Of a DNA stretch of 64,000 nt, positions 3,413 to 64,000 are shown one piece after another (the first letter of the stretch is position 1; each line of letters begins with the position of its first letter). Where the stretch lies: the NCBI RefSeq assembly GCF_009914755.1, contig NC_060931.1. One strand, given 5' to 3'. The DNA comes from the human T2T-CHM13v2.0 reference genome, Homo sapiens. A program made the position numbers and the translations under genes. Below the pieces are notes generated by a model. That model was not told the DNA's origin and searched no databases. It saw nothing but the letters and a program-made list of their open reading frames with translations.

Positions 3413-3713
3413 AGGCCGGTTGCGGTGGCTCATGCCTGTAATCCTAGCACTTTGGGAGGCTGAGGTGGGTGGATCACCTGAGGTCAGGAGTTCGAGACCA
3501 GCCTCGCCAACATGGCGAAACCCCATCTCTACTAAAAATACAAAAGTTAGCTGGGTGTGGTGGCAGAGGCCTGTAATCCCAGCTCCTTGGGAGGCTGAGG
3601 CGGGAGAATTGCTTGAACCCGGGGACGGAGGTTGCAGTGAGCCGAGATCGCACTGCTGTACCCAGCCTGGGCCACAGTGCAAGACTCCATCTCAAAAAAA
3701 AAAGAAAAGAAAA
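3413..3713 (+). mobile_element. Alu (S-type) in HILPDA 3'UTR
   Basis: Full Alu with A tail, flanked by GCCTGTTTA direct repeat. Confidence 0.9.
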
Positions 3714-4177
3714 AGCCTGTTTAATGCACAGGTGTGAGTGGATTGCTTATGGCTATGAGATAGGTTGATCTCGCCCTTACCCCGGGGTCTGGTGTATGCT
3801 GTGCTTTCCTCAGCAGTATGGCTCTGACATCTCTTAGATGTCCCAACTTCAGCTGTTGGGAGATGGTGATATTTTCAACCCTACTTCCTAAACATCTGTC
3901 TGGGGTTCCTTTAGTCTTGAATGTCTTATGCTCAATTATTTGGTGTTGAGCCTCTCTTCCACAAGAGCTCCTCCATGTTTGGATAGCAGTTGAAGAGGTG
4001 TGTGGGTGGGCTGTTGGGAGTGAGGATGGAGTGTTCAGTGCCCATTTCTCATTTTACATTTTAAAGTCGTTCCTCCAACATAGTGTGTATTGGTCTGAAG
4101 GGGGTGGTGGGATGCCAAAGCCTGCTCAAGTTATGGACATTGTGGCCACCATGTGGCTTAAATGATTTTTTCTAACT

Positions 4178-4215
4178 AATAAAGTGGAATATATATTTCT
4201 ACTGTGTGTCATGTT
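4178..4215 (+). terminator. HILPDA: HILPDA polyadenylation signal and downstream GU-rich element
   Basis: AATAAA 4178-4183 followed about 20 nt later by CTGTGTGTCATGTTG. Confidence 0.8.
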
Positions 4216-5259
4216 GACTTCTGCTCTTGAAATTCGTGGTAGGGAGGGTCTTAATTTCTAGACCTGAGGTTTAATTTTAACATCTCAATACTTTGGAGCA
4301 GGAAAGTGCTTAAATCACTTTGTTTAAAACATAGTATCAGTAGACTTCTGAATTTGGGGGCAGAGGCAGTTGGGTCTGCCATGTATCAACCAGTTATGTG
4401 AGCCTAGGCCACGATTATTGCAGGCCTGTCATGACTAGATCTGTAAAGAAGAAGAAAAATGATCACCACTTCCAGCCCCTCTCCTTGAGTCTCTGGGGCA
4501 AAGAGGACTATCAGTCCAGGAGGCTGTGGGCTTTTTCTTTTGTACTCTTCAGCGTGTTTTACTTACCCACCAAAAAGGCTGCTTAATTCAGATTGTTCTC
4601 AAAGTCAGTTGGTAAAGTGTCCACACCACACAGATGATTATATCTGCTCTCCCAGATCTAAGCAACTTGGCCTTTACTCAAAAGTTGGAGGGGTTTTTTT
4701 TTCTTGTATCCATCACTCTTGTACTTCCTGTCCCACGTACAATTGTATTCACTCCTTTGCCCTTCAGAATATATTTATTTACACTCCCATCTGGGCGTGT
4801 GCATCATTTTATTAACTTGACTGACTTTTGCTAAAGCGCAACAATGAAGTACAGTGTCTTCTGTTAAGCCAGTTTTGCTTCCTGAGTGTTCTTAAAATGT
4901 CACTACCCTAGAAGCCTGTGGGTTAAGCATCACTTTCATTTATTGCACAGTGGTTGTCACTAGTGTTATTTATCAAGTATTTCCAGTTTCCCACCTTTCG
5001 GGTACATGGTAAATTGGTCCCCTTGTGGCTGGCAGGGTTTATATGACTGTTACTTTGTTAGCATAGTACTACTCTCAAAAGTCTATTTGGCTTTTTCTCT
5101 GGTTTCAGTTTCATGTGCCAGTAGTTACCCTCTTCTAGTCATATTTCTTATATTTGATATATTTTCTCATTCTCATGCTTCTAATTTGGGGTATTTTTGA
5201 ACCTTCAATTGGAGAGCCTGCACCTTAAGTCTCTCCTCCAAGTGGCTTAGTTTAATTGA

Positions 5260-5706
5260 AGTGATCTGTGTGCCACCACCCCCTTGTGGTTGGATGGAGC
5301 CATGTCATTAGTTCTGGCCAATGAGCTGTGAGTGGTAGTGGCTTGCGTTAATTCTACGTGAGAGCATTTCAGTGCTGGAGAAACCTGCGAGGACCTCTTT
5401 TTCCCTCTGTGCAGTGACCAGCAGTGCTTCCTATGGAACTGTTCATTAGTGTAGGTCCTGGAATGAGGATGCATGGCGCAGGGCCCTTAATCTGTCCAAT
5501 CTGACTGTGATGTGGGAGAGACTTCTAGACATGTTGCTTTCTCTAGGGTATGTTCTTATATTTCCCATTACCCCCCACCCCCTGCAAAAGGACTGGGCCT
5601 GTTTTGGGAAGGTGACTGATACCCGCACTGTAGCACAGGAATTGTGCTACTGATATCTGGGGGTTTTGTTAACTGAAGTGTAACTTAGCTTATCCTGATT
5701 GGTACA
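5260..5706. mobile_element. MLT1 (MaLR) LTR remnant, interrupted by a 150-bp insert
   Basis: GTTCTGGCCAATGAG...GTG motif and terminal TAACTTAGCTTATCCTGATTGGTACA resemble MLT1 consensus from memory; boundaries approximate. Confidence 0.55.
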
Positions 5707-6042
5707 TTGTGTACAGCACCTATTGGATGCCAGGCATCAGCTAATACCTCATCGCTACCTGCCTCAAATGTACACAAGGTATTGGGAGGAAGGCATGTGA
5801 ACAAATAATGTGTCATGGTTTTGTGATAGAAATACGTATACAGGATAGTGGGTATATAAAGTTATTTGTAGGCAGGAGAGGGGTGTTCAGGAAAAGCTTC
5901 TTAGAGGATCTCAATTTTTTAAAAATGCGTAGGTTGTAGGCTGCTGGCCAACTTAGGAAAAGGTGTCTCAGCGGAGGGAACAACGGGAGCAAAGGCATGG
6001 AGATGAGCCTATGCACAGCTCATTTAGAAAACTGCAAGTTCA

Positions 6043-7332
<1,290 letters not shown>

Positions 7333-7473
7333 CTAGTACCACCTAGTGGACCCTAAAGAAGGGAATATTTTATATACTGTATGCTGTGTAATGCTTTCTG
7401 AATTTGAATGACACTACCTCTGAAGCTTAAGATAACTATGAGAATATTAAGGGCTGGAAGATAAGATCTAGCC

Positions 7474-7730
7474 CAGCACTGTCCAATAAAAACATAATGC
7501 AAACTACATATATAATTTAAAATTTTCTAGTGTCCCATTAAGGAGTAAAAAGAAACTGAAGATATTTTTAACATATTTAACGCAATGTATTCAAGATATC
7601 ATTCCAAAATATAACATAAAGTGTTATTAATGAGATATGTTAAATACTTTTTTTGTGATACTAAGTTTGTATACTGGTGGGCATTTTATACTTAAAATAT
7701 GTCTCTACTTGGATTTGCCACACATTTTCT
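7474..7730. mobile_element. MER33/MER3-like hAT DNA transposon, truncated
   Basis: CAGCACTGTCCAATAAAAACATAATGC...AAATTTTCTAGT...GTAAAAAGAAAC; other terminus not found after the adjacent Alu. Confidence 0.6.
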
Positions 7731-7750
7731 TTAGTTTTTGTTGGTGGTGC

Positions 7751-8020
7751 TTTTTTTTTTTTTTTTTTTTTTGAGAGTTTTGCTCTGTCGCCCATGCTGG
7801 AGTGCAGTGGCACAATCTCGGCTCACTGCAACCTCTGCCTCTGGGTTCAAGCAATTCTTGTGCATCAGCCTCCTGAGTAGCTGGGATTACAGGCACCCAC
7901 CACCATGCTGGGCTAATTTTTTTTTTTTTTTGGTAGAGATGGGGTTTCACCATGTTGGCCAGGCTGGTCTCAAACTCCTGACCTCCAGTGATCTGCCCAC
8001 CTTGGTGTCTGTGCTGGGAT
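7751..8020 (-). mobile_element. Alu, truncated at its 5' end
   Basis: Poly-T then reverse Alu; breaks off after GTGCTGGGAT. Confidence 0.85.
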
Positions 8021-8226
8021 CCTTTTCTGTTAACTTGCTTATAAAAATGTCACACTCTGTATTAAGACATAAGGAGTTAGAAAATCACTGTAAAAATAAA
8101 GTTGCTTGTTGTACAGGTACTAACAAGCATTTTCTGAAATGGAAATTTGTTTTTTTATTAACCTAATACAAATAAGGTTCAAGCACTGTATTTAAATATT
8201 TAAAAGATAGGAGTTTCTTAAAATAC

Positions 8227-8300
8227 CACATATGGTGCTCTTTCTTGTGAGCTTGCTTTTCTCCACAATTTGGCAATTTGCTTCACTCTAGTAGTCCAAT
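8227..8300 (-). pseudogene. KMT2C: Orphan duplicated exon of KMT2C (MLL3), HMG-box segment
   Basis: Minus strand CTGTTCTTTTGTTGCAG|AT TGG ACT ACT AGA GTG AAG CAA ATT GCC AAA TTG TGG AGA AAA GCA AGC TCA CAA GAA AGA GCA CCA TAT GTG|GTATTT = (D)WTTRVKQIAKLWRKASSQERAPYV, identical to the recalled KMT2C sequence; canonical AG/GT. Confidence 0.88.
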
Positions 8301-8571
8301 CTGCAACAAAAGAACAGAATATAACACTTTCTCAGAGCCATGCTAATGATGTGTTGTATTAAAGAATGTTGATGAACTGCTGACAGTTAATCTTATTCAG
8401 GCCGTATTCTCATGAGGTCATAGATCTATATTAAGTTTTTTTACAAAGAACAAAGATCCTGGCACACTGTAGGCCAAACAAACGTTTTCTAAATGAAGTG
8501 TTGCCTTATTAACAACCTAGCTTGTAGGTTGGGAAGTTTTTAGATTCAAGGGACAAAGTAGCAAAAATGTG

Positions 8572-12260
<3,689 letters not shown>

Positions 12261-12339
12261 CTTCTATAATAAAATATACTTATTTATTATGTCTTTTTGT
12301 TGTATAATTCAAATTAAAATGTATTACCTTCTTTTTTAA

Positions 12340-12489
<150 letters not shown>

Positions 12490-13203
12490 TGAGTTCCTTC
12501 CCAGAAATCACTGACAAAAATATTGTCCACTTCAATACTACACCATAAAACCAAGAGAATTTTTATCTGCTCTATGTCTTTAAAATGAGACAAGGTTGTT
12601 TCTCATGTTTACCCATTGTAATAACACCATTTCTTTCTCTATAATCAAATGGATTCAAATGTTAAGTGTTATGATTCATCCTGCTATTCACCTATGCAGC
12701 TATACTCACTGTTATTTCTGGGACATTCATTTGTGTTATTCCAGAAATATCAAACTAATTAAGGTAGTTAACCAACAGTCACAGTGAGTAGTGTACTCAG
12801 AGATTCATGGTGAAAGAATCTTACATCCTGAGGCCTCTAGCCCTGGGGCACCAGCTGCACCAGGGCTAAGAAGCTTGAGAAGATCAATAGTTTGGTATTA
12901 ATACATTGGAAATCTTGGCATTAGGTAAAGAACAGCTAGGGCAAGTATTCTTTGGGCTATCTCAATCTATCCTCCTTGGTTCAGCTGCCACCTATGTACT
13001 GATTACTGTTAAAGTTGTCACTAACCTAACTTCTTTCCTCTATTTCTGACCTATCTCACTGACCACTTGATGACTATTTCTGCCTCTACGCAGGGTCTCA
13101 TAACATAACAAACTCAACGTGTCCAAAACAAAACTCATCATCTTCTGCAGCCAACTGGTTCTCCCCTGGGAATTCTGTATCTCAGGTGTTTTTTGTTTGT
13201 TTG

Positions 13204-13206
<3 letters not shown>

Positions 13207-13250
<44 letters not shown>
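13207..13250 (+). repeat. (TG)22 microsatellite
   Basis: Perfect dinucleotide run, followed by a short antisense L1 3'-end fragment at 13263-13323. Confidence 0.98.
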
Positions 13251-13253
<3 letters not shown>

Positions 13254-13459
13254 AAATAAGGTCAACTTTTATTTTAGATCCACGGGGTACATGTGCAGGT
13301 TTGTTATGAGAGTATATTGCATGTGTCTCAGTTGATAGCATCTACTCAGTCACTGAAGCTAGAAGGCCAGGAGCTATCCTTAACTGGGGTTTTTTCCTCA
13401 TTCCTCACATCTGCTAATCCCCAAGTCTGGCCGATTGTCATTCTCTTAAAGATTTTTCA

Positions 13460-21540
<8,081 letters not shown>

Positions 21541-22379
21541 GTACTAATTACCAATGTGCTATGTCTAGCACTGCACTAACCCTTTCCTTTTTTAAAAAAA
21601 TTCATCTTTCCCTTTATTCTGACATTATGACATTAAATAAAGTCCAAGAGATATTGGGCTGGTCCTTGTTTGGTCTCTGCCCTTTCCTTCTTTTCCAAGT
21701 GGTATTCATCATGCTTCTCTTGGAAGTCTTCTCAAATAACCTTATGTCTATAACATACTTTCTTCTAGATTCTTTTGAGAGTCTATTTGTATTAGATCTA
21801 GAAATAGAAATGTAAGGCTGAAATGTATTACTATGACAAACTGTATGTGTGTATTACAATCTTAATTGTGCTAATAAGGATAATTATAATAAATATAATA
21901 TGGATGATTCAAAAAGGTTAGATGGTTATAATTAAAAAAAAATTGTCCTTGGATATTCCATTTGATTTGCTAAGCCTCGTGTTCTCTAATTTCATATATC
22001 CATCTCCCCCACCCCAACCAAAATATATATACACACTGTGTATACATATACACCCACACTATGAAGAGCTGACTATAGAAGCGGGAAATTGCCCTGTTTC
22101 TTTCCGCTGCTTGCTACCTTCTTCAGTTCTGGACATCGGCTCCGCAGTGGAACTAGGTAGCCTCAACTCTTATAATGATTCAAGATTATTCCTGTTTTAC
22201 AACTTGAGGGAAGCTGGGGAACCTGTTAAGAGGATCCCAGCAATGAACTGGGCCTCAAGTGGAATGTCTCCCACTTTCTGCCTAACCTGCACGTCCATCA
22301 GCACCTCATCAATGAGATACGACTCCTCCGGGGAGAATTTCCCCCTGCCTGGTCCCCTTCCCTAGAGAGCCCTTCGCCA

Positions 22380-22550
22380 ACCCTGGGAAAGCCCCAAACG
22401 ACAGCTCCCGAGCGCCACCCGGACCAGACTCCAGGACCGCCCTGTCCCGCCACCCTTTTTCCCGCCCAGACTCCACGTCTTCTGAAAGAGGGCGTGGCCC
22501 GCAGGAAGTTCTCGCGTTACGGAAAGTGAAGTGTTTCCGGCTCCGGTGTC
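22380..22550 (+). promoter_or_regulatory. METTL2B: METTL2B TATA-less CpG-island promoter
   Basis: CpG-rich about 22380-23050; ETS/GABP-type CAGGAAGT 22502-22509 and TTTCCGG 22534-22540; TCTCGCG (BANP/ZBTB33-like) 22510-22516. Confidence 0.7.
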
Positions 22551-47721
<25,171 letters not shown>

Positions 47722-47792
47722 GAGGCACCTGCTGCCAACACGATGCAAGCCCGTTGTGTTTCCGAGCTTTTTTAAAAAAAAATTTGTAGCAC

Positions 47793-51920
<4,128 letters not shown>

Positions 51921-52385
51921 CCCCACTTAATGGGTTTTCAGAGGTGGGAGCAAAGAATGAAGGGAGGAAGAGAGCTCCCATCTTTTCCATTACCGTATTT
52001 ACTTAAAACTGGAAAAAACTGAATCACTGGGATGGTATTTCATTTATCTTTTGAAATGAAGAATAGATACATTAATTTAAATGATTCTCTAAAGACTGTC
52101 CTTCAGCATCCCTAAAGCATTGCAAAACTATAGGCACAGTTTTTATTTTATCTTTCTGGCACCTGGTTTGGGCTTTGGCTTAGATTAAAAAGACGAGCCT
52201 TCTCCTGCCCCTGCTCCCTTTTATTCCCTGCCATCTGCTAAGCTCGACTTTTTATCTCTCAGGCCAAATTTGACTCTGTAAGGGACTTTGCATAACGTTT
52301 CATCCTCAGAATCGCTAATGATGGGCAGAGGACTGTTACATGTGTTGGGAGGGATTAAAGTATATGACCTCAGTGCCACTTAAAA

Positions 52386-52391
52386 AATAAA
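52386..52391 (+). terminator. METTL2B: Candidate distal METTL2B polyadenylation signal
   Basis: AATAAA in unique (non-Alu-tail) sequence after the Alu array; other AATAAA hexamers occur more proximally. Confidence 0.5.
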
Positions 52392-52401
52392 TACTGTCTC
52401 A

Positions 52402-62440
<10,039 letters not shown>

Positions 62441-63179
62441 AAAAAACAATAGAATACAAAGAATTAATTAATACAGCAGTCCTAGTGGCCCCCATAGTGA
62501 AATTCTAATGCCTTGCAGAGAACAGAATCAAATTGTCAACCTCTGTAGGCTATTCTGTATTCACAGATTCATTTGTAGAAGATGCATTTCATTACACGTT
62601 GTGTTTTTAGCAGTTACAGTGATGGCATGTTCCTTGGCAACTTCAGCCTGGAGAGATGAGATTTGTAGCAGAAAGCACTCATCTGCATTTCTTGTCTTCC
62701 ATCTCAAAGAGCAGTGAAGAGGCTGTAAGGCCGTCTGGTTTCCGAGGAACTTCAGCTTTACCCTCAGGCAGGTTCCACTGCTCCATCAGGCCTATGACAC
62801 TGTTAGGGGCCCTGGAAACTGTTTTAATTAATTTTAAAATCAGAAGAAAATATGCATATAATAATAATGAATATTATGAGAATGAATCTAGACCAAATGA
62901 TGATCCCTTACCCCCGCCCTTGTCCAGGTGAATGGAGAAGGCCATGCATGTGTCCTGAGCTGAGCCAGTCAGAGCCCCTGCCCCGGACCCCAGATGGAGA
63001 GGACAGCCTGCTCCAGGCAGCAGGATCTGGACAGTGAGTGCTGGGGAGTTCTGGGAGGCCAGGAAGGTGGAGGGGAGGCAGCCACGGGAGATTCCAGGGT
63101 GACAGCATGGCAGGCCAGGGTGAAAGCAAGTATAAAAGCCCCCAGGCAGGAAAATATCCGCATTCAAGCAGCTAAAGGC

Positions 63180-63830
63180 AGGCCCCGGAGGGTCCCCGGC
63201 AAGAATGGTGGAGGAGGCTGGAGATGAGATAGAGGCAGGGTTGGACCACCTGGGCCTTATAAGCCAGAGGGAGCTGAGGTTTTTTTTTTACTCCAATGAG
63301 CAGCTATTAAAGGGTTTTAAGGGAGGGAGTGACCAGATCTGATTTACATTTTAAAGAGATTAGCACTGTGGAAAGTGTACTGTGGAGGTGGGGCAAGAGC
63401 TGAGAGCCGCATAGAGAGCCCTGGATACTTCTGGACTCTGAATGGGGGGCCAGGCTTCAGCGATGTAGGTGAGGATGGAGACAGGTGGGTCCAAGAGGAC
63501 CTGTGGGTGGAGGGGCTGGAGGGGGAAAGGAAAGGCTGTTATCAAGGATAAATGGTGGTGATGGTCGTGCTGTTCTGCTCCTGAGCTGGGGAAGAAGGGA
63601 AGACATGAAGACTTCTGTTCAGACCCATTGAGGTACCCATGGCACACACACATGGAAGTGTGGAGAAGGCAGTGGAACATGTCAGTCTGGAGTGGGGGAC
63701 ACAGGTCAGGGCTGAACGCCCCAGGATGCTGGAAGTGTGGGTGGCATCAGTGCACAACTCGTGTTTGAAGCCGCAAATCTCTGAGTTAGGGAGGAAATGG
63801 GAATGTGCTGTGACCCAGAAACTCAGAGGA
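63180..63830. mobile_element. L2 remnant
   Basis: AAGGGTTTTAAG...GGGAGTGACCAGATCTGATTTACATTTTAAAGAGAT-type L2 motif. Confidence 0.55.
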
Positions 63831-63906
63831 AACTGCCCTTGTTGAGTCCCTGCTGAAGACAGAATGAAGACAAGACAGAGAAGGATCCTTTCTTTTTTTT
63901 TTTTGA

Positions 63907-63999
<93 letters not shown>

Positions 64000-64000
64000 A

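What the first reader, a model, noticed from the sequence alone, without database searches (positions are those of the whole stretch)
8021..8571. Orphan KMT2C (MLL3) HMG-box exon with intact splice sites, fused to the 5' end of an SVA
Seen: a 74-nt minus-strand exon (8300-8227) with pyrimidine tract, AG and GT, encoding (D)WTTRVKQIAKLWRKASSQERAPYV. It sits in about 550 bp of non-repetitive flank between a broken Alu (ends about 8020) and the SVA hexamer (8572). It is absent from the ORF track. Known from memory: this peptide is KMT2C, whose gene lies at 7q36. Intron flanks are retained, so it is not a processed pseudogene. Inference: an SVA 5' transduction or a DNA-level template switch. It could be spliced into antisense transcripts and could cause mis-mapped KMT2C variant calls in exome or tumour sequencing.
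Basis: partly seen in the sequence, partly recalled or inferred. Interest (0 to 1): 0.85.

Follow-up and report, generated by a model that had tools for sequence, protein, structure and literature searches.

The report
KMT2C exon scrap at duplication junction
A 545-base unspliced copy of one KMT2C exon with its intron flanks sits glued to the front of an old SVA retrotransposon exactly where a 150-kb block copied from chromosome 17 joins chromosome 7, and it looks like a scar of that rearrangement rather than a working gene part.

Summary
Window 8025-8569 is a genomic (intron-bearing) copy of chr7:153358246-153358791, the only other copy in this complete genome. The 74-nt minus-strand exon 8300-8227, with its AG and GT, is identical to the parent. 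Its peptide matches the MLL3/KMT2C HMG box 24 of 24.

The KMT2C piece plus a full-length old SVA (8572-10082) forms the proximal junction of the chr17q23-to-7q32 segmental duplication that made EFCAB3P1 and METTL2B.
- DNA to the left is unique chr7, ending in a truncated Alu.
- Chr17 homology starts inside the SVA poly-A, at a site that reads TTTT/A on the bottom strand of chr17.
- There is no target-site duplication.
- Chr17 has neither the SVA nor the KMT2C piece.
- The KMT2C parent site has no SVA.
- The piece is as diverged from its parent as the duplication is from chr17.

Best reading: an SVA transcript carrying upstream KMT2C sequence was reverse-transcribed on chr17-type DNA and joined aberrantly to chr7. 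DNA-level patching is a strong rival. No function is indicated. Interest is modest.

The parts
7745..8020 (-). Native chr7 Alu. It starts with its poly-T and is truncated at the right, lacking about the first 26-28 nt of the element. It is the last native chr7 sequence before the junction.
   Evidence: Read. Window 4200-8020 has only its own full-length match in the genome, plus repeat hits of at most 822 bp.
8021..8024 (.). Four unassigned bases (cctt) between the Alu and the KMT2C homology.
   Evidence: Alignment; the BLAST match starts at 8025.
8025..8569 (+). KMT2C-derived 545-bp duplicon, same orientation as parent chr7:153358246-153358791. It has 10 substitutions in 543 aligned sites and 4 indel events.
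8227..8300 (-). Orphan copy of the KMT2C HMG-box exon (74 nt), with AG and GT intact. It is 74/74 identical to the parent and lies inside a 110-bp identical run (8209-8318).
8570..8571 (.). Two extra bases (tg) between the KMT2C homology and the SVA hexamer.
8572..10082 (+). Full-length old SVA. Parts: CCCTCT array 8572-8622; Alu-like region to about 9053; VNTR 9054-9553 (about 13 units of 37 nt); SINE-R about 9554-10066; AATAAA at 10048-10053; poly-A 10067-10082 (16 A).
   Evidence: The nearest other SVAs are at most 92% identical, among 40 scored of 10758 first-look candidates.
10080..64000 (+). Start of the chr17q23-derived segmental duplication (EFCAB3P1, METTL2B). Homology to C17:63281357 onward begins within the last A's of the SVA tail. 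Only 10080-17700 was aligned here; the rest of the window is taken from the gene table.
   Evidence: Further samples up to chr7:129929882 are.

Best explanation
The piece is a non-functional, sub-kilobase genomic copy of the KMT2C HMG-box exon with its intron flanks. Together with an old full-length SVA, it forms the proximal junction of the roughly 154-kb chr17q23-to-7q32 segmental duplication.

Most likely sequence of events:
1. An SVA once lay in the KMT2C intron, in + orientation (antisense to the gene). It is not present at that site in this genome.
2. That SVA was transcribed from about 545 nt upstream, giving a transcript with a 5' transduction.
3. The LINE-1 machinery nicked chr17-type DNA at a TTTT/A site and reverse-transcribed this RNA from its poly-A.
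4. The far end of the cDNA was not resolved normally. It was joined to a break in a native chr7 Alu, leaving no target-site duplication.

Step 4 could have happened in either of two ways. It could have happened after the duplication, with loss of the original junction (an insertion-mediated deletion). Or it could have happened during the duplication, with the cDNA bridging the two chromosomes.

Shown: the origin of each segment, the junction positions, the absence of a target-site duplication, the endonuclease-type site, and the equal age. Inferred: the lost source SVA, the RNA intermediate, and the order of events.
For: 1. Segment origins: 8025-8569 matches chr7:153358246-153358791. From 10080 onward the window matches chr17:63281357 onward at 95.5-96% identity. 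Window 4200-8020 is unique chr7.
2. The SVA is complete from its first hexamer to a 16-A tail behind AATAAA. This fits a transcript-defined unit.
3. At the join, chr17 reads TATAT|AAAAG. On the bottom strand this is TTTT/A, the LINE-1 endonuclease preference. The tail merges with those A's.
4. The native chr7 side has no A-run, so priming was not there.
5. No shared word of 7 nt or more links either left flank (7985-8032, 8535-8580) to the right flank (10060-10125). A second SVA 225 kb away keeps a clear 13-bp duplication, so such marks do survive in this region.
6. Ages agree. Non-CpG divergence is 8/535 = 1.50% for the piece against its parent, and 128/7376 = 1.74% for chr7 against chr17.
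7. The piece and the SVA have the same orientation, as a 5' transduction requires.
8. Precedent: a retroelement with a poly-A, an endonuclease motif at the 3' breakpoint and no target-site duplication marks SVA- and L1-associated deletions, translocations and duplications. Sources are PMC4229983 (abstract and section 6), PMC3362811 (abstract) and PMC7058536 (passages).
Against: - No SVA lies beside the parent sequence in chr7:153352000-153361999.
- No other genomic copy carries this transduction.
- No close relative of this SVA was found. The best is 92%, though only 40 of 10758 candidates were scored.
- Two extra bases separate the piece from the hexamer.
- An A-run at the chr17 breakpoint would also be favoured by a microhomology join to the poly-A at DNA level.
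- The ages overlap but have wide error (8 substitutions), so the order of events is open.
- No outgroup genome was available, so a deletion at the site cannot be shown.
Confidence: 0.45

Rival explanations
1. DNA-level origin. The 545 bp were copied as DNA while the duplication junction was made or repaired. Either they came alone, or together with an SVA that then sat in a KMT2C allele. The mechanism would be a replication template switch or a templated patch at a double-strand break. The switch to chr17 would have used A-run microhomology with the SVA tail. No SVA transcript carrying KMT2C sequence is needed.
For: - Introns are retained, and both ends of the piece are blunt or carry 2-4 filler bases.
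- The locus is a mosaic. The chr17 block ends at chr7:129929882 directly against a multi-copy subtelomere-type duplicon. Several DNA segments were therefore stitched together here.
- The donor lies on the same chromosome in the same orientation.
- There is no target-site duplication.
- Patches templated from distant regions at break repairs are described in PMC5110952 (abstract).
- SVAs at duplication breakpoints through DNA recombination are described in PMC9132208 (abstract).
Against: - The SVA runs exactly from first hexamer to end of tail. A DNA switch has no reason to respect those ends.
- The chr17 breakpoint is a full TTTT/A site.
- If the piece and SVA were copied together, this reading also needs a lost SVA in KMT2C. 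If they were copied apart, it needs two independent joins at the exact ends of the SVA.
Confidence: 0.3
2. The SVA cDNA is ordinary, with no transduction. The KMT2C piece is a separate patch added at the cDNA's far end during an aberrant integration. It came either from the reverse transcriptase switching to a second template or from end-joining of a stray fragment.
For: - Two extra bases lie before the hexamer, where a capped full-length SVA RNA would end. That such extra bases arise at RNA 5' ends is recalled knowledge.
- There is no SVA at the parent site.
- No other copy carries the transduction.
Against: The second template would have to be an antisense intronic KMT2C transcript or a free DNA fragment, and nothing here supports either. 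From recall, described chimeric retrocopies mostly carry small abundant RNAs at the 5' side.
Confidence: 0.15
3. The composite inserted in the ordinary way into the native chr7 Alu before the duplication arrived. The chr17 block later landed exactly at the end of the SVA tail.
For: The poly-A and the chr17 A-run could pair. Duplications tend to land beside earlier insertions and repeats, which is general knowledge.
Against: - The chr7 side has no A-rich endonuclease site.
- A scan of 264 kb found no isolated Alu 5' end outside the chr17-derived block. The single isolated remnant, at local 88059, lies inside that block, so it is not the displaced native Alu end.
- No Alu end preceded by a matching duplication lies at the block end I located (chr7:129929882) or at about 129972396, the point where homology to the other duplicon copies was last seen.
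- The true point where native chr7 resumes was not fixed.
Confidence: 0.07
4. The exon copy is used: it is spliced into a minus-strand transcript or acts as a regulatory element.
For: The splice sites and 18 nt on each side are identical to the working KMT2C exon.
Against: The hub table lists no minus-strand gene and no functional element at 8021-8571. The exon is 74 nt, which is not a multiple of three, and it stands alone. No expression data were available.
Confidence: 0.03

Closest known systems
SVA 5' transduction (Damert et al. 2009 and Hancks et al. 2009, recalled; neither paper is held; an example of a 5' transduced flank is in PMC4229983, Figure 2 legend)
   Same: Unique non-SVA sequence sits directly before the hexamer, in the same orientation, on a full-length SVA with AATAAA and a poly-A.
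   Different: There is no SVA at the donor site in this genome, no target-site duplication and no sibling copies. The transduced part is unspliced and antisense to the donor gene.
SVA or L1 insertion-associated deletion and rearrangement (PMC4229983 abstract and section 6; PMC3362811 abstract, 13 SVA insertion-mediated deletions; PMC7058536 passages)
   Same: A retroelement with a poly-A sits at an endonuclease-type site on one side. The other side is unrelated DNA, and there is no target-site duplication.
   Different: In this case the two sides come from different chromosomes within a fixed germline duplication roughly 10 million years old. The lost or bridged DNA cannot be shown without an outgroup. 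The elements in the NF1 cases were 5' truncated, whereas this one is full length with extra 5' sequence.
SVA as a breakpoint of segmental duplications (lcr16a; PMC9132208, abstract only)
   Same: An SVA sits at the edge of an interspersed primate duplication.
   Different: That work invokes SVA-to-SVA recombination and circular intermediates. In this case chr17 has no partner SVA at the breakpoint. The next + strand SVA, 225 kb away, is an ordinary insertion with its own 13-bp duplication.
Class 2 templated sequence insertions (PMC5110952, abstract only)
   Same: A few hundred bases templated from a distant site are placed at a repaired break, without a poly-A or a target-site duplication of their own.
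   Different: The patch here is welded to the exact 5' end of a retrotransposon and lies at a duplication junction.
Known KMT2C paralogous copies (missing in GRCh38, added in T2T-CHM13; bioRxiv 10.1101/2021.07.12.452063, passages; the link to the BAGE family is recalled)
   Same: KMT2C-derived genomic DNA lies outside the gene.
   Different: Those copies are large and cause known false calls. This exon has only one extra copy in the whole genome. That copy is 545 bp, which is below the usual 1-kb threshold for duplication maps (threshold recalled).

Membership tests
SVA 5' transduction | Unique non-SVA sequence contiguous with the SVA 5' end, in the same orientation | tested here: met
   8025-8569 (+) is followed after 2 nt by the hexamer at 8572.
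SVA 5' transduction | The donor locus has an SVA immediately downstream of the transduced sequence | tested here: not met
   No SVA match in chr7:153352000-153361999. The parent continues with unrelated unique sequence. Only this one genome was examined.
SVA 5' transduction | A target-site duplication flanks transduction plus SVA plus poly-A | tested here: not met
   No shared word of 7 nt or more between the flanks.
LINE-1-mediated (target-primed) insertion | Poly-A tail behind a polyadenylation signal, abutting a TTTT/A-type site | tested here: met
   AATAAA at 10048-10053 and 16 A at 10067-10082. Chr17 reads TATAT|AAAAG at the join.
Retroelement insertion-mediated deletion or bridged rearrangement | No target-site duplication, with the 5' flank unrelated to the 3' flank | tested here: met
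   The left flank is unique chr7, the right flank is chr17-derived, and there is no duplication.
Retroelement insertion-mediated deletion or bridged rearrangement | A pre-insertion allele shows the DNA that was lost or the unjoined ends | not testable with these tools
   No ape or other primate genome is held.
Processed pseudogene | Introns removed, with a poly-A at the 3' end of the gene sense strand | tested here: not met
   202 nt and 269 nt of intron are retained on the two sides of the exon.
Annotated segmental duplication (at least 1 kb and at least 90% identity; threshold recalled) | Length of at least 1 kb | tested here: not met
   The homology is 545 bp. Identity of 97-98% would qualify.
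KMT2C HMG-box exon | Encodes the MLL3 HMG-box peptide with intact splice signals | tested here: met
   24/24 identical to 2yuk_A residues 48-71. AG and GT are present, and the exon is 74/74 identical to the parent.

The most novel reading that the evidence does not exclude
The SVA did not insert afterwards: it made the junction. On this reading, an SVA cDNA primed on chr17 DNA bridged to a broken chr7 end. That seeded the interchromosomal duplication which gave rise to METTL2B. It would be a germline, evolutionarily fixed counterpart of the retroelement-bridged translocations and duplications so far documented in tumours.
Probability: 0.2. Interest if true: 0.65.

Novelty: new member of a known kind. 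Interest (0 to 1): 0.35.

Why it matters
The finding gives a base-pair map of one edge of the duplication that created METTL2B and EFCAB3P1: native Alu, 545-bp KMT2C scrap, full-length SVA, then chr17 DNA at an endonuclease-type site. That signature links retrotransposition to the making or remodelling of a primate segmental duplication, and it can now be tested directly in complete ape genomes.

It also shows that duplicons under 1 kb, which usual duplication maps miss, can carry intact exons of disease genes. In practice, one KMT2C exon has a second, perfectly identical copy with a 110-bp identical core. Short reads of 100 bp or less can be ambiguous there. No function of the copy is indicated.

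Tried and rejected
1. Searches with repeat-rich 10-kb queries failed. Even the query's own place was not returned, because only 38-39 of 30,000-80,000 candidates were scored. These blanks say nothing. I switched to locally unique segments chosen.

2. The far end of the chr17 block was sought in order to find the missing Alu end.
- The block ends at chr7:129929882, matching chr17:63431505.
- It abuts another multi-copy duplicon there, not native chr7.
- The point where native chr7 resumes was not fixed.
- A scan of 264 kb found no isolated Alu 5' end outside the chr17-derived block. One isolated remnant at local 88059 lies inside that block.

3. The circular-intermediate / SVA-to-SVA recombination model was considered. 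The only other + strand SVA in the 264 kb (chr7: about 130000975-130002600) has its own 13-bp target-site duplication and is 87-88% identical to this one. It is therefore an unrelated ordinary insertion.

4. A source or sibling SVA was sought, but none above 92% identity was found.

5. Literature:
- No paper with SVA, transduction and KMT2C/MLL3 describes this locus. One search found 309 papers and listed 15, none relevant by title or abstract.
- The one METTL2A/METTL2B duplication paper (PMC13333887, passages) dates the duplication to the human-gorilla ancestor. It contains no occurrence of the term 'SVA' or of 'HILPDA'.
- The two 2009 catalogues of SVA 5' transductions are not held. Their tables and supplements may list this element, and I could not see them.

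6. A processed pseudogene, a chance match and a chr17 origin of the piece were all rejected.

Full report
**What is there.**

On the minus strand, window 8300-8227 is a 74-nt exon. A pyrimidine tract and AG precede it, and GT follows it. It encodes WTTRVKQIAKLWRKASSQERAPYV. This peptide is 24/24 identical to residues 48-71 of PDB 2yuk_A, the MLL3 (KMT2C) chain, at E 6.9e-11; the next hit has E 1.

A search of the window's own complete genome with 8021-8571 returned 2 of 2 candidates. One was the window itself. The other was chr7:153358246-153358791, + strand, 97% identity, E 7.9e-262. Local alignment sets the homology at 8025-8569, with 202 and 269 nt of intron on either side of the exon.

The copy differs from its parent by 10 substitutions in 543 sites and 4 indel events. 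None of these lies in the exon. The longest identical run is 8209-8318, 110 bp.

- To the left, window 4200-8020 has no second copy in the genome apart from interspersed repeats. It ends in an antisense Alu that lacks about its first 26-28 nt.
- To the right of the piece, after two extra bases, comes a full-length SVA. It has a CCCTCT array at 8572-8622, an Alu-like part, a VNTR at 9054-9553, a SINE-R, AATAAA at 10048-10053 and 16 A at 10067-10082.
- From about 10080 the window matches chr17:63281357 onward at 95.5-96% identity.
- Chr17 has neither the SVA nor the KMT2C piece at that place.

The composite is therefore the proximal junction of the chr17-to-chr7 duplication that produced EFCAB3P1 and METTL2B. 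One paper describes this duplication as about 200 kb and dates it to the human-gorilla ancestor (PMC13333887, passages).

By sampling, I followed the chr17 block collinearly to chr7:129929882, matching chr17:63431505, about 154 kb. The stretch between window 17700 and chr7:129904021 was not aligned. At its distal end the block abuts a multi-copy, subtelomere-type duplicon that is 97% identical to copies on many chromosomes. The locus is a mosaic of duplicons.

**Junction anatomy.**

- At the join, chr17 reads TATAT|AAAAG, which is TTTT/A on the bottom strand. The SVA tail merges with those A's.
- The chr7 Alu side has no A-run.
- No word of 7 nt or more is shared between either left flank and the right flank, so there is no target-site duplication.
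- As a control, another SVA 225 kb away keeps a clean 13-bp duplication.
- The parent KMT2C site has no SVA within chr7:153352000-153361999 and continues with unrelated sequence.
- The closest other SVAs are at most 92% identical, among 40 scored of 10758 candidates. The element is old, and no source or sibling was found.
- Non-CpG divergence is 1.50% (8/535) for the piece against its parent and 1.74% (128/7376) for chr7 against chr17. The two events are therefore of about the same age, within wide error.

**Most likely mechanism.**

Three features form the signature reported for retroelement-associated deletions, translocations and duplications. These are a complete SVA with a tail at a TTTT/A site in chr17-type DNA, unrelated DNA on the other side, and no target-site duplication. 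The sources are PMC4229983 (abstract and section 6), PMC3362811 (abstract) and PMC7058536 (passages).

I therefore favour the following. An SVA transcript that began about 545 nt upstream, in the KMT2C intron, was reverse-transcribed on chr17-type DNA. Its source SVA has since been lost or was never fixed. The far end of the cDNA was joined to a break in the chr7 Alu. This happened either after the duplication, deleting the original junction, or during it, bridging the two chromosomes. Confidence is 0.45.

The lost source, the RNA step and the order of events are inferred.

**Rivals.**

- A DNA-level template switch or repair patch is the main rival (0.30). It fits the mosaic locus and the blunt ends. 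It does not explain why the SVA is bounded exactly by its own ends.
- A separate patch added to an ordinary SVA cDNA is second (0.15). It fits the two extra bases and the missing source.
- An ordinary earlier insertion into chr7 is unlikely (0.07), because the chr7 side has no endonuclease-type site and no displaced Alu end was found. The point where native chr7 resumes was not fixed, however.
- Use of the exon is very unlikely (0.03). No minus-strand gene is annotated in the window, and the exon is 74 nt and stands alone.

**Comparison with what is known, and novelty.**

The structure resembles an SVA 5' transduction, but it fails two defining tests: an SVA at the donor site and a target-site duplication. 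It meets the tests I could run for a retroelement-associated rearrangement. SVAs at duplication edges are known for lcr16a through recombination (PMC9132208, abstract), but no partner SVA exists here on chr17.

I found no description of this junction in print. The two 2009 catalogues of 5' transductions and their supplements could not be read.

I class it as a new member of a known kind. The known KMT2C mapping problem concerns other copies. This exon has only the one extra copy.

**Verdict.**

This is a real and well-defined structural scar, about as old as the duplication it borders, with no sign of function. Interest is 0.35. The boldest reading still open is that the SVA cDNA itself bridged chr7 and chr17 and so seeded the METTL2B duplication. 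I give that a probability of 0.2.

Noticed in passing
window 8968-9276 (also 9018-9276): The annotated EFCAB3P1 exon lies wholly inside the SVA. Its acceptor is cccag|gctggag in the Alu-like part and its donor is gag|gtgagg in a VNTR unit. The SVA therefore supplies an exon to the read-through RNA that starts at the HILPDA promoter. The KMT2C exon copy lies antisense in the preceding intron (3465-8967).
   Followed up: partly
chr7:129929882/3 (165 kb right of the window start; loci L025, L026, L038): The chr17-derived block ends 10 nt past an antisense Alu. It is joined directly to a duplicon present at about 97% identity near many chromosome ends and at interstitial sites (for example chr1 at 0.2 Mb and chr4 at 121.9 Mb). 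That duplicon runs to at least chr7:129972396.
   Followed up: partly
L003, parent locus chr7:153358792-153358820: A CCCTCT hexamer, the SVA 5' repeat unit, lies 20 nt downstream of the point where the copy stops matching KMT2C. This may be chance (roughly 1-3%) or a trace of pairing with the SVA 5' end. It is unexplained.
   Followed up: no
L003, parent locus about 27-34 nt upstream of chr7:153358246: An A/T-rich TATA-like word (ctaaaatag) lies about 30 nt before the first copied base. That placement would suit a transcription start for a 5' transduction. The intron is A/T rich, so this carries little weight.
   Followed up: no
chr7:130000975-130002610 (loci L033, L034): A second + strand SVA with a clear 13-bp target-site duplication (aataataacggtc) on both sides. 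It is an ordinary insertion and was used here as a control.
   Followed up: yes
window 8609-8695: The SVA 5' region holds 2.2 copies of a 40-nt unit ending in ctttccacgg. This is an internal duplication between the hexamer array and the Alu-like part.
   Followed up: no
chr7:129888211-129890299 (locus L021): A third SVA, on the minus strand, lies inside the chr17-derived block. It is 86-88% identical to the junction SVA. Whether chr17 has it too was not checked.
   Followed up: no
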